Assembly: GCF_030013595.1 (NCBI RefSeq)
Contig: NZ_CP122768.1
Origin: Escherichia coli
Lineage (GTDB): Bacteria; Pseudomonadota; Gammaproteobacteria; Enterobacterales; Enterobacteriaceae
Length of the DNA stretch: 64,000 bases
Strand: one strand, 5' to 3'
The translations under genes and the position numbers were made by a program. Under the pieces are notes generated by a model. It was not told the origin of the DNA. It saw nothing but the letters and a program-made list of their open reading frames with translations, and made no database searches. Below are positions 3,733 to 8,530 of this stretch, piece after piece. Position 1 is the stretch's first letter, and the number at the start of each line of letters is the position of its first letter.

Positions 3733-4428
3733 TTAAATTATCTGCCGTACTTCGTCGAGGGTGGTGGTGCCGTAAGTGCCGAGATCCAGCGTATTACCGT
3801 TGTTGCCGCGGATCACACCCTGCACCAGAGCAAACTGCAGCGGCTGGGCAACCAGTTGTGTACCACCGTTACTGGCGCTAATCGCTACGTTGTAAGAACC
3901 GTTCGGCGCAGTGCTGCCGTCAGTCAACGTACCGTCCCAGGTGAAACTGTGGACTCCGGCAGTCAGTTCACCGATATCAATGGTACGGACAACCGCACCG
4001 TTTTTATCGGTGATGGTGGCCGTAACTTTGTCTGCCGCCTGTTGCAGCTCAACACCAAACGGCGTGGTCGTGGTCACAGCCCCTTCTTCACTGCCGGTTC
4101 CCGCAAGAACAGTGGTGCCGGGGATCATCACGCCGTGACCGATCAGGTTACTGGCCTGTAACGACTGGCTGTTATCAATCTGTCCGGAAATAGATCCGAG
4201 CGTGGTATTGAGTTTTTCAATCCCGCTGACCGTGCTGATTTGAGCCAATTGCGACGTCAGCTCGTTGTTTTCCATTGGATTGGTCGGGTCCTGGTTTTTC
4301 AGCTGCGCCACCAGCAAAGTCAGAAAACTGCTTTGTAAATCTGCGGCGTTGCTGCCCGTGAGCGAACTACTACTGGTGGTGCTGACGCCGGTATTTGTCG
4401 GATCGGTGGTGGTTACCGCAATGGACAT
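3733..4428 (-). CDS. flgD: flagellar hook capping/assembly protein FlgD
   Basis: 231-aa ORF MSIAVTTTDPTNTGVSTTSSSSLTGSNAADLQSSFLTLLVAQLKNQDPTNP... Confidence 0.94.
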   Translation of the reverse strand: MSIAVTTTDPTNTGVSTTSSSSLTGSNAADLQSSFLTLLVAQLKNQDPTNPMENNELTSQLAQISTVSGIEKLNTTLGSISGQIDNSQSLQASNLIGHGVMIPGTTVLAGTGSEEGAVTTTTPFGVELQQAADKVTATITDKNGAVVRTIDIGELTAGVHSFTWDGTLTDGSTAPNGSYNVAISASNGGTQLVAQPLQFALVQGVIRGNNGNTLDLGTYGTTTLDEVRQII

Positions 4429-4847: not shown

Positions 4848-5264
4848 TTAATTTCCGCTCTGTAAAACGTTCATCATGCCTTTGATTTGCCCGCTCAACG
4901 CGCTAAGGCTCATCTGGTATTGCAGGCTGTTATCGGCAAACTGGGTGCGTTCGCGATCCATATCGACGGTATTACCGTCAAGCGAAGGCTGGTCCGGAAT
5001 ACGGTATTGCAGTTCTGCGGTAGGAGGCGTCAACGCCTGCGCCGGAATGTGTTGCGTTGAGGTCATCGTCAGTGCAACCACACTGGTTGCATCCCGTCCA
5101 CGTTGCATGACTTTTTTAAGTTCACTGGCAAAATCGATATCGCGCGCCTGATAACCAGGGGTATCGGCATTGGCGATGTTTGCTGCCAGCACTTCCTGAC
5201 GCTGGGCGCGCAGATTGAGCGCCTCTTGTTGAAAACGTAAGGCGGCGTCGAGCTTATCGAGCAT
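4848..5264 (-). CDS. flgB: flagellar proximal rod protein FlgB
   Basis: 138-aa [48 protein letters not shown]... Confidence 0.95.
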
Positions 5265-5418
5265 ATCTCCTCCGCAGGTATCAAAATTCTGCCATCAGCT
5301 TAAATGCCTTTACGCGCGCGTTATCGGCGGAATAAACGCAAAATGGGTCGCTATTTATGCCGTTGATGGTCATTGCGGACAGGTACAATTCACGTTGTAG
5401 AAATGGCAGGGGGCGAAA
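5265..5418. promoter_or_regulatory. divergent flgB-operon / flgAMN promoter region (class 2 flagellar promoters expected)
   Basis: 154-bp intergenic between divergently oriented flgB and flgA; assignment from established operon organisation, individual sites not resolved by eye. Confidence 0.6.
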
Positions 5419-6078
5419 ATGCTGGCAATAAAACGTAGCGTGGCGATCATCGCGATACTGTTCAGTCCGTTAAGTGCGGCGAGCAATCTCACATCGCAAT
5501 TGCACACCTTTTTTAGCGCCCAGCTCGCGGGGGTAAGTGATGAGGTTCGTGTTTCTATTCGTACAGCGCCCAATCTACTACCGCCGTGCGAGCAGCCATT
5601 GCTTTCGATGAGCAATAATTCCCGCCTGTGGGGCAATGTGAATGTGTTGGCACGCTGCGGTAACGACAAACGATATTTACAGGTTAATGTGCAGGCCACA
5701 GGAAATTATGTGGTTGCCGCAATGCCCATTGTGCGGGGAGGAAAGCTGGAAGCTGGCAATGTCAAACTGAAACGCGGACGGCTGGATACCCTGCCACCGC
5801 GTACGGTGCTGGATATCAATCAACTTGTTGATGCCATTAGCCTGCGCGATCTATCACCCGATCAACCTATCCAGTTAACCCAGTTTCGCCAGGCATGGCG
5901 GGTAAAAGCGGGACAACGCGTCAATGTGATCGCCAGCGGTGATGGGTTTAGCGCCAACGCTGAAGGTCAGGCGCTGAACAATGCAGCCGTCGCACAGAAT
6001 GCGCGGGTGCGCATGGTATCTGGACAGGTAGTCAGCGGCGTTGTTGATGCAGATGGGAATATTCTTATAAACCTGTAA
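5419..6078 (+). CDS. flgA: flagellar P-ring assembly chaperone FlgA
   Basis: 219-aa ORF with signal peptide MLAIKRSVAIIAILFSPLSAASN... Confidence 0.93.
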   Translation: MLAIKRSVAIIAILFSPLSAASNLTSQLHTFFSAQLAGVSDEVRVSIRTAPNLLPPCEQPLLSMSNNSRLWGNVNVLARCGNDKRYLQVNVQATGNYVVAAMPIVRGGKLEAGNVKLKRGRLDTLPPRTVLDINQLVDAISLRDLSPDQPIQLTQFRQAWRVKAGQRVNVIASGDGFSANAEGQALNNAAVAQNARVRMVSGQVVSGVVDADGNILINL

Positions 6079-6083
6079 GCTGT

Positions 6084-6110
6084 TAAAGATTACCCGTCCC
6101 TTGCCGATAA
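6084..6110 (+). promoter_or_regulatory. sigma-28 (FliA) class 3 promoter for flgMN
   Basis: TAAAGATT-N11-GCCGATAA read directly at 6084-6110, matching the FliA consensus TAAAGTTT-N11-GCCGATAA, 44 bp upstream of the flgM start. Confidence 0.8.
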
Positions 6111-6153
6111 ATAAGCAACATATGATAAAAGCGCCCTCAATGAGGAATAAACC

Positions 6154-6447
6154 ATGAGTATTGATCGCACTTCGCCTCTGAAGCCCGTAAGCACCGTTCA
6201 ACCGCGCGAAACCACTGACGCGCCGGTAACGAACACCCGGGCGGCAAAAACAACCGCCTCCACCAGCACCAGTGTGACGTTAAGCGACGCGCAAGCAAAA
6301 CTGATGCAACCCGGCAGCAGTGATATCAATCTTGAACGTGTCGAAGCGTTAAAACTGGCGATTCGTAACGGTGAACTAAAAATGGACACCGGCAAAATTG
6401 CCGATGCGCTGATCAACGAAGCGCAGCAAGACTTGCAGAGTAACTGA
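6154..6447 (+). CDS. flgM: anti-sigma-28 factor FlgM
   Basis: 97-aa [37 protein letters not shown]... Confidence 0.95.
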
Positions 6448-6451
6448 TCGT

Positions 6452-6868
6452 ATGACGCGTCTTGCAGAGATCCTCGACCAGATGTCCGCTGTGCTTAACG
6501 ATCTCAAAACGGTAATGGATCAAGAGCAGCAACATCTCTCTATGGGGCAGATCAACGGCAGCCAGTTGCAATGGATTACAGAACAAAAAAGCTCTCTGCT
6601 GGCGACGCTGGATTACCTCGAACAGTTACGCAGGAAAGAACCCAATTCAGCAAATAGCGTTGATATTAGTCAACGCTGGCAGGAAATTACTGTGAAAACG
6701 CAGCAACTACGCCAAATGAATCAACATAACGGCTGGTTACTGGAAGGACAGATTGAGCGCAATCAACAGGCGCTGGAAATGTTGAAACCGCATCAGGAAC
6801 CGACGCTATATGGAGCGAACGGTCAGACCTCAACAACCCATCGCGGCGGTAAAAAGATTTCGATCTGA
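6452..6868 (+). CDS. flgN: flagellar export chaperone FlgN
   Basis: 138-aa ORF MTRLAEILDQMSAVLNDLKTVMDQEQQHLS... Confidence 0.94.
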   Translation: MTRLAEILDQMSAVLNDLKTVMDQEQQHLSMGQINGSQLQWITEQKSSLLATLDYLEQLRRKEPNSANSVDISQRWQEITVKTQQLRQMNQHNGWLLEGQIERNQQALEMLKPHQEPTLYGANGQTSTTHRGGKKISI

Positions 6869-6877
6869 AGATTATCT

Positions 6878-6898
6878 CCGGCCTGCACTGCAGGCCGG
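6878..6898. terminator. bidirectional hairpin between convergent flgN and murJ
   Basis: Perfect 9-bp stem CCGGCCTGC / GCAGGCCGG with 3-nt loop between the two stop codons. Confidence 0.6.
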
Positions 6899-6907
6899 AA
6901 TGCATTG

Positions 6908-8530
<1,623 letters not shown>

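What the first reader, a model, noticed from the sequence alone, without database searches (positions are those of the whole stretch)
6084..6110. FliA-dependent promoter for flgMN inside the 3' end of flgA
TAAAGATT-N11-GCCGATAA is a near-consensus sigma-28 promoter; known feature of the flagellar regulon, confirms orientation and identity of the region.
Basis: partly seen in the sequence, partly recalled or inferred. Interest (0 to 1): 0.15.

Follow-up and report, generated by a model that had tools for sequence, protein, structure and literature searches.

The report
Known flgMN sigma-28 promoter, intergenic
This is the well-known promoter that the E. coli flagellar sigma factor FliA uses to transcribe flgM and flgN; it is real and strongly conserved, but it starts just after the flgA stop codon rather than inside flgA, and it is ordinary.

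Summary
The motif TAAAGATT-N11-GCCGATAA is at window 6084-6110 (+), as reported. It differs from the sigma-28 consensus at one base. No shuffled window gives a match this good. A weight matrix built from 24 other FliA ChIP-seq sites scores it 26.9 bits, against 19.0 for the best of 100 shuffles.

The window is E. coli, and the promoter is identical to K-12. In K-12 this exact 28-mer is the published FliA ChIP-seq site for flgMN, and it lies in a FliA-holoenzyme genomic-SELEX peak. The transcription start used in published constructs maps to A6117/A6118, 7-8 nt after the -10 element.

In 78 of 78 usable loci from about 20 enterobacterial genera, a sigma-28 motif with an 11-nt spacer precedes flgM. 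TAAAG and TGCCGAT never vary, while the spacer does.

One part of the claim is wrong. flgA ends at 6078, so the promoter starts 6 nt after the stop codon, in the 75-bp flgA-flgM spacer. It overlaps flgA in none of the species examined.

Verdict: an already known class 3 flagellar promoter, correctly identified but misplaced relative to flgA. Interest is low.

The parts
5419..6078 (+). flgA (P-ring assembly chaperone). Its stop codon TAA is at 6076-6078. It is the first gene of the FlhDC-dependent class 2 flgAMN transcript, which reads through the promoter.
   Evidence: ORF; NCBIfam TIGR03170; RefSeq annotation; no + strand terminator-like site between flgA and flgM.
6084..6091 (+). Sigma-28 -35 element TAAAGATT, 7 of 8 matches to TAAAGTTT.
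   Evidence: TAAAG is invariant in 75 distinct enterobacterial sequences.
6092..6102 (+). 11-nt spacer ACCCGTCCCTT. The length is conserved and the sequence is variable, except for the final T.
   Evidence: The spacer is 11 nt in 78/78 loci. Mean column identity is 0.72, against 0.96 and 0.94 for the two elements.
6103..6110 (+). Sigma-28 -10 element GCCGATAA, 8 of 8 matches, including the critical CGA core at 6105-6107.
   Evidence: GCCGAT is invariant. The importance of CGA is stated in PMC2859248.
6117..6118 (+). Transcription start of the class 3 flgMN mRNA, at A6117 or A6118.
   Evidence: Romilly et al. 2020 describe a fusion carrying +1 to +105 with 23 codons, which implies a 36-nt leader and a start at 6118. 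Their primers EHO-714 and MHO-240 begin at AACACATGATAAAAG, which is 6117. AAC at 6117-6119 is 95-99% conserved. I inferred this from published constructs and did not read it from a mapping experiment.
6117..6153 (+). 5' leader of the class 3 transcript, with the Shine-Dalgarno sequence GAGGA at 6142-6146.
6154..6447 (+). flgM, the anti-sigma-28 factor.
   Evidence: (TIGR03824).
6452..6868 (+). flgN, the export chaperone for FlgK and FlgL, and the second gene of the operon.
   Evidence: (NF012003).
6877..6899 (.). A 10-bp G+C-rich hairpin between the convergent genes flgN and murJ. It is the probable end of the flgMN transcript, but it has no U tract.
   Evidence: -21.3 kcal/mol, z -4.1. The terminator scan did not call it.

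Best explanation
This is the class 3 (FliA/sigma-28-dependent) promoter of the flgMN operon of E. coli. It lies in the 75-bp spacer between flgA and flgM. RNA polymerase carrying sigma-28 recognises TAAAGATT (-35) and GCCGATAA (-10), which are 11 nt apart. It initiates at A6117/A6118 and makes an flgM-flgN mRNA with a leader of about 36 nt. Early in flagellar assembly, flgM is also transcribed as part of the FlhDC-dependent class 2 flgAMN transcript, which reads through this site. Once the hook-basal body is complete, FlgM is exported and FliA is released, and FliA then fires this promoter. That replenishes its own inhibitor FlgM, which is negative feedback, and supplies FlgN for export of the hook-filament junction proteins. 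Shown here or in cited work: the motif, its statistics, its conservation, FliA binding to the identical K-12 sequence in vivo and in vitro, and rescue of flgM expression by FliA in a flhD deletion strain. Inferred from established knowledge: the timing and the feedback logic in this particular strain.
For: There is one mismatch to consensus, and 0 of 100 shuffles match. The PWM score is 26.9 bits, the top of the window, against a shuffle maximum of 19.0. The sequence is identical to K-12 from 6040 to 6160 except at 6121. The FliA ChIP-seq site TAAAGATTACCCGTCCCTTGCCGATAAA is assigned to flgMN with a fold-above-threshold score of 48, and FliA overexpression in a flhD deletion strain restores flgM expression (PMC4183435). 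A FliA-holoenzyme genomic-SELEX peak lies in the flgM/flgA spacer (PMC5493296). The start site used in published flgM constructs is 7-8 nt after the -10 element (PMC7549644). The motif with an 11-nt spacer is present in 78/78 loci from about 20 genera, with invariant TAAAG and TGCCGAT beside a variable spacer. The 43-mer 6076-6118 is identical in 5,197 of 5,426 complete E. coli genomes.
Against: In K-12, deleting fliA lowered flgM RNA only from 451 to 318, which was not significant (PMC4183435 Table 2). Under those conditions most flgM transcription therefore comes from the class 2 promoter. The start site is taken from published construct designs, not from a mapping experiment I could read. 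With +1 at 6117/6118 the CGA core sits at about -13 to -10. That is 1-2 nt further upstream than the -11 to -9 quoted for the aer promoter. Nothing was measured in the strain this window comes from.
Confidence: 0.97

Rival explanations
1. The promoter is embedded in the 3' end of the flgA coding sequence, so its conservation would partly reflect coding constraint.
For: RNA polymerase contacts upstream of the -35 element would overlap the last codons of flgA, since the stop lies at about -42 to -40. At least one other E. coli class 3 promoter, motAB-cheAW inside flhC, is truly intragenic.
Against: flgA ends at 6078 by ORF and by RefSeq annotation in two strains, and the motif starts at 6084. 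In 78/78 related loci the -35 element starts 5 to 114 nt after the flgA stop and never overlaps it. Fitzgerald Table 2 lists the site without the parentheses that mark intragenic sites. A literature search for wording that places it inside flgA found nothing relevant.
Confidence: 0.01
2. It is a chance resemblance to the sigma-28 consensus with no function.
For: Matches with 3 mismatches occur at roughly chance frequency in the window: 3 found against 0.69 expected.
Against: 0 of 100 shuffles give a match with <=1 mismatch. The PWM score is far above the shuffle maximum. A clear conservation footprint is seen across about 20 genera. FliA binding is published for the identical sequence.
Confidence: 0.01
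3. It is a real FliA binding site that contributes little to flgMN expression in normal growth. Its main role would then be in special conditions, such as flagellar repair, swarming or high FliA activity.
For: The fliA deletion had only a small, non-significant effect on flgM RNA. Fitzgerald et al. comment that dual-regulated class 3 promoters appear weakly active in wild type but are capable of high activity.
Against: This qualifies the main explanation rather than replacing it. The near-consensus sequence, the high ChIP score and the invariance across genera all argue for selection on promoter function. Hollands et al. cite growth-phase-dependent flgM promoter activity that tracks sigma-28 levels.
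Confidence: 0.3

Closest known systems
E. coli K-12 flgMN class 3 (sigma-28) promoter
   Same: The sequence is identical across the -35 element, spacer, -10 element and start site. The flanking genes and spacing are the same.
   Different: There is a single base difference at 6121 (T here, C in K-12), at +4/+5 of the transcript and outside the promoter elements.
Salmonella flgM class 3 promoter (overlapping flgAMN and flgMN operons)
   Same: The position is the same, 5 nt after the flgA stop. The -35 element TAAAGATT and the 11-nt spacer are the same, as is the dual class 2 / class 3 arrangement (for S. enterica subsp. arizonae and diarizonae; PMC4183435).
   Different: The -10 element is GCCGATGA in the two Salmonella loci examined. 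The distance from the -10 element to the ATG is 59 nt, against 43 nt here, so the leader is about 16 nt longer. The original Salmonella mapping papers could not be read.
E. coli motAB-cheAW sigma-28 promoter inside flhC
   Same: It is a FliA-dependent class 3 promoter with the same bipartite motif.
   Different: That promoter really is intragenic, listed as (flhC). The flgMN promoter is not.
Pseudomonas putida PflgM
   Same: It is a FliA-dependent promoter driving flgM, so feedback control of the anti-sigma factor by its own sigma factor is widespread (bioRxiv 10.1101/2021.08.29.457346).
   Different: The regulatory hierarchy differs (FleQ/sigma-54 rather than FlhDC). The sequences were not compared here.

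Membership tests
Sigma-28 (FliA) class 3 flagellar promoter | -35 element resembling TAAAGTTT, with T at position 1 and A at position 3 especially important | tested here: met
   TAAAGATT matches 7 of 8, with T1 and A3 present. The importance of these positions is stated in PMC2859248.
Sigma-28 (FliA) class 3 flagellar promoter | -10 element GCCGATAA with a CGA core | tested here: met
   GCCGATAA matches 8 of 8. GCCGAT is invariant in 75 sequences.
Sigma-28 (FliA) class 3 flagellar promoter | 11-nt spacer between the two elements | tested here: met
   The spacer is 11 nt here and in 78/78 related loci.
Sigma-28 (FliA) class 3 flagellar promoter | Correct orientation, just upstream of a flagellar or chemotaxis gene | tested here: met
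   The motif is on the + strand, and its -10 element ends 43 nt before the flgM ATG.
Sigma-28 (FliA) class 3 flagellar promoter | Transcription start a few nt downstream of the -10 element | tested here: met
   The start site in published constructs maps to 6117/6118, 7-8 nt after the -10 element (PMC7549644). This evidence is indirect, because I could not read a primary mapping dataset.
Sigma-28 (FliA) class 3 flagellar promoter | Bound by FliA holoenzyme and transcribed in a FliA-dependent way | not testable with these tools
   Published for the identical K-12 sequence: ChIP-seq score 48, rescue by FliA in a flhD deletion strain (PMC4183435), and a genomic-SELEX peak (PMC5493296). Not measured in this strain.
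Intragenic promoter (inside flgA) | Promoter elements lie within the upstream coding sequence | tested here: not met
   The flgA stop is at 6076-6078 and the motif starts at 6084. There is no overlap in any of 78 related loci.

The most novel reading that the evidence does not exclude
The invariant CCUC (6135-6138) and GAGG (6142-6145) in the class 3 flgM leader may form a small hairpin that occludes the ribosome-binding site. Together with a leader segment of about 17 nt that Escherichia lacks and most other genera have, this could be an undescribed cis element that tunes FlgM translation specifically from the FliA-dependent transcript. Nothing here excludes this, but invariant pairs cannot show covariation. 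The conservation of GAGG is explained by the Shine-Dalgarno sequence alone.
Probability: 0.12. Interest if true: 0.3.

Novelty: already known. Interest (0 to 1): 0.05.

Why it matters
It anchors the annotation. The window carries flagellar region I of E. coli, with flgAMN on the + strand and both levels of flgM control intact. It adds nothing new to flagellar biology. The practical value is the correction that the promoter is intergenic, starting 6 nt after the flgA stop, and a cross-genus footprint showing which bases are under selection.

Tried and rejected
I tried to read the primary Salmonella and E. coli promoter papers: Wozniak et al. 2010 (PMC2937404), Wozniak & Hughes 2008 (PMC2488150) and Koo et al. 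2009 (PMC2756079). None is held. The start-site evidence therefore rests on construct and primer designs in Romilly et al. 2020.

A search for the promoter name 'flgMp' returned only unrelated papers. A search for wording that places the promoter inside flgA found only a Pseudomonas paper, where the phrase refers to the cheV promoter.

The sigma-70 scan found only a minus-strand 9/12 match at 6086-6058, and the number of such sites in the region matched the shuffle expectation, so I rejected it as chance. The Rfam search of 5900-7000 found nothing.

RNAalifold on 23 and on 20 leaders supported only the invariant 4-bp CCUC/GAGG stem, with no covariation. It gave no consensus hairpin for the extra leader segment of non-Escherichia genera.

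The two other consensus matches with 3 mismatches, at 4004-4030(-) and 60013-60039(-), are within chance expectation.

Full report
**Observation.** Reading window 5400-7200 shows TAAAGATT at 6084-6091, an 11-nt spacer (ACCCGTCCCTT, 6092-6102) and GCCGATAA at 6103-6110 on the + strand. Against the sigma-28 consensus TAAAGTTT-N11-GCCGATAA (consensus as printed in PMC2859248) this is one mismatch. It is the only site in the 64-kb window, on either strand, with one mismatch or fewer. None of 100 dinucleotide-preserving shuffles produced such a site. At three mismatches or fewer there are 3 sites against 0.69 expected.

As an independent test I built a weight matrix from 24 other high-scoring FliA ChIP-seq sites in Fitzgerald et al. 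2014, leaving out flgMN. The site 6084-6111 scores 26.9 bits. That is 10 bits above the next site in the window, close to the best training site (27.9), and above the best score in 100 shuffled windows (19.0).

**Context.** The window is Escherichia coli. The segment 5300-7000 matches 5,425 of 5,426 complete E. coli genomes and is 100% identical to strain HCP5S3_I2. ORFs and NCBIfam models give the following genes:
- flgB, 4848-5264 (-)
- flgA, 5419-6078 (+)
- flgM, 6154-6447 (+)
- flgN, 6452-6868 (+)
- murJ, 6908-8443 (-)

These match the RefSeq annotation of the identical strain and of K-12 MG1655. The K-12 coordinate equals 1,136,282 minus the window coordinate. Between 6040 and 6160 the window differs from K-12 at one base, 6121 (T against C), downstream of the promoter.

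**The position claim is wrong.** The flgA stop codon TAA is at 6076-6078, so the -35 element begins 6 nt after it. The promoter lies wholly in the 75-bp flgA-flgM spacer (6079-6153), not inside the 3' end of flgA. Fitzgerald et al. mark intragenic FliA sites with parentheses, for example (flhC)motAB-cheAW. They list flgMN without parentheses. Only the upstream polymerase contacts would overlap the last flgA codons, since the stop is at about -42 to -40.

**Published evidence on the identical sequence.**
- FliA ChIP-seq in K-12 lists TAAAGATTACCCGTCCCTTGCCGATAAA as the flgMN site, with a fold-above-threshold score of 48. The paper's data support the overlapping flgAMN and flgMN operons (PMC4183435).
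- FliA overexpression in a flhD deletion strain restored flgM expression to wild-type levels or higher. Deleting fliA lowered flgM RNA only from 451 to 318, which was not significant. Under those conditions the class 2 promoter therefore dominates.
- Genomic SELEX with FliA holoenzyme gave a peak in the flgM/flgA spacer, intensity 15.0 (PMC5493296).
- Hollands et al. count flgMN among the eight well-characterised sigma-28 promoters of K-12. They note that -32T, -30A and the CGA core are critical in the Salmonella flgM promoter (PMC2859248).

**Transcription start.** Romilly et al. 2020 built an flgM::gfp fusion carrying '+1 to 105' with 23 codons, which implies a 36-nt leader and a +1 at window 6118. 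Their primers for the flgM 5' UTR begin at AACACATGATAAAAG, which is 6117 (PMC7549644). The start is therefore 7-8 nt after the -10 element. This is inferred from construct designs, because I could not read a primary mapping dataset.

**Related sequences.** A scan of one genome per species with FlgM returned 80 loci from about 20 genera of Enterobacteriaceae. They include Citrobacter, Salmonella, Enterobacter, Buttiauxella, Lelliottia, Cedecea, Kosakonia, Leclercia, Atlantibacter, Phytobacter, Trabulsiella, and other Escherichia species.
- In all 78 loci with enough upstream sequence, a sigma-28 motif with exactly 11-nt spacing lies upstream of flgM.
- The motif starts 5-6 nt after the flgA stop in most loci, 26 nt in Buttiauxella, 31 nt in Trabulsiella and 114 nt in Atlantibacter. 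It never overlaps flgA.
- In an alignment of 75 distinct sequences, TAAAG (6084-6088) and TGCCGAT (6102-6108) are invariant.
- The spacer averages 72% column identity and the 5 nt after the stop codon average 73%.
- The AAC at 6117-6119 is 95-99% conserved, consistent with the start site.

Within E. coli, the 43-mer 6076-6118 is identical in 5,197 of 5,426 complete genomes.

**Mechanism.** Sigma-28 holoenzyme binds the two octamers and initiates at A6117/A6118, producing an flgM-flgN mRNA. No + strand terminator-like site separates flgA from flgM, so FlhDC-dependent class 2 transcripts from upstream of flgA read through. This gives the known dual control. FlgM made early keeps FliA inactive. 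After the hook-basal body is complete FlgM is exported, and the freed FliA fires this promoter, which renews FlgM and FlgN (framework as summarised in PMC4183435). Binding, motif and conservation are shown. The timing logic in this strain is inferred from established knowledge.

**Rivals.** Chance is excluded by the shuffles, the footprint and the ChIP-seq data. The intragenic placement is excluded by the ORF and the annotation. A minus-strand sigma-70-like match at 6086-6058 is at chance frequency. The only live qualification is quantitative: the promoter may contribute little under standard laboratory growth.

**Comparison and novelty.** This is the K-12 flgMN class 3 promoter itself, so it is already known. 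The Salmonella counterpart has the same position and -35 element, but it has GCCGATGA at -10 and a longer leader.

**Side observations.** These are listed under 'noticed in passing'. None changes the verdict.

Noticed in passing
window 6135-6145: CCUC (6135-6138) and GAGG (6142-6145) are invariant in all aligned genera. They form the only consensus stem in the flgM leader, a 4-bp stem with a 3-nt loop at about -3.8 kcal/mol, and it covers the Shine-Dalgarno sequence. No covariation is possible because nothing varies. The leader as a whole is less structured than shuffled sequence (z +1.36).
   Followed up: partly
window 6111-6153, compared with L003-L082 (about 60 nt before position 1501 in each): The distance from the -10 element to the flgM ATG is 43 nt in Escherichia (this window, E. 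albertii, E. whittamii and the divergent E. coli locus L026). It is 57-66 nt in most other genera. The extra segment of about 17 nt looks hairpin-like in individual sequences, but RNAalifold found no consensus structure. Four Buttiauxella loci are also short.
   Followed up: partly
window 6121: T here against C in K-12, at +4/+5 of the class 3 transcript. The exact 50-mer containing this T is found in only 17 of 5,426 complete E. coli genomes, while about 5,200 differ from it at one base. This is a rare allele of unknown consequence.
   Followed up: partly
window 4003-4030 (-): This is the second-best sigma-28 matrix hit in the window, CAAAGTTACGGCCACCATCACCGATAAA at 16.9 bits. It lies inside flgD in the sense direction, upstream of flgE. 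The score is within the range of shuffled windows (maximum 19.0), and no FliA ChIP-seq peak is listed there in K-12.
   Followed up: partly
window 6877-6899: A 10-bp G+C-rich hairpin lies between the convergent genes flgN and murJ (-21.3 kcal/mol, z -4.1). It has no U tract on either strand, and the terminator scan did not call it. It could be a bidirectional transcript end or a REP-like element.
   Followed up: partly
window 5300-7000: Only 359 of 5,425 E. coli genomes are >=99% identical over this 1.7 kb, and most are 95-99% identical. The best matches are pig isolates from the United Kingdom. The window therefore comes from a less common lineage than K-12.
   Followed up: no
L074-L076 (Atlantibacter), upstream of position 1501: The flgA-flgM spacer is 200 nt instead of about 92 nt, with the sigma-28 motif 114 nt after the flgA stop. 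I did not examine what fills the extra sequence.
   Followed up: no
window about 1600-1700 (flgF-flgG junction, by coordinate conversion): Shimada et al. report a weaker FliA-holoenzyme SELEX peak in the flgF/flgG spacer of K-12 (intensity 6.7). The matrix scan did not place a top hit there. I did not examine it further.
   Followed up: no
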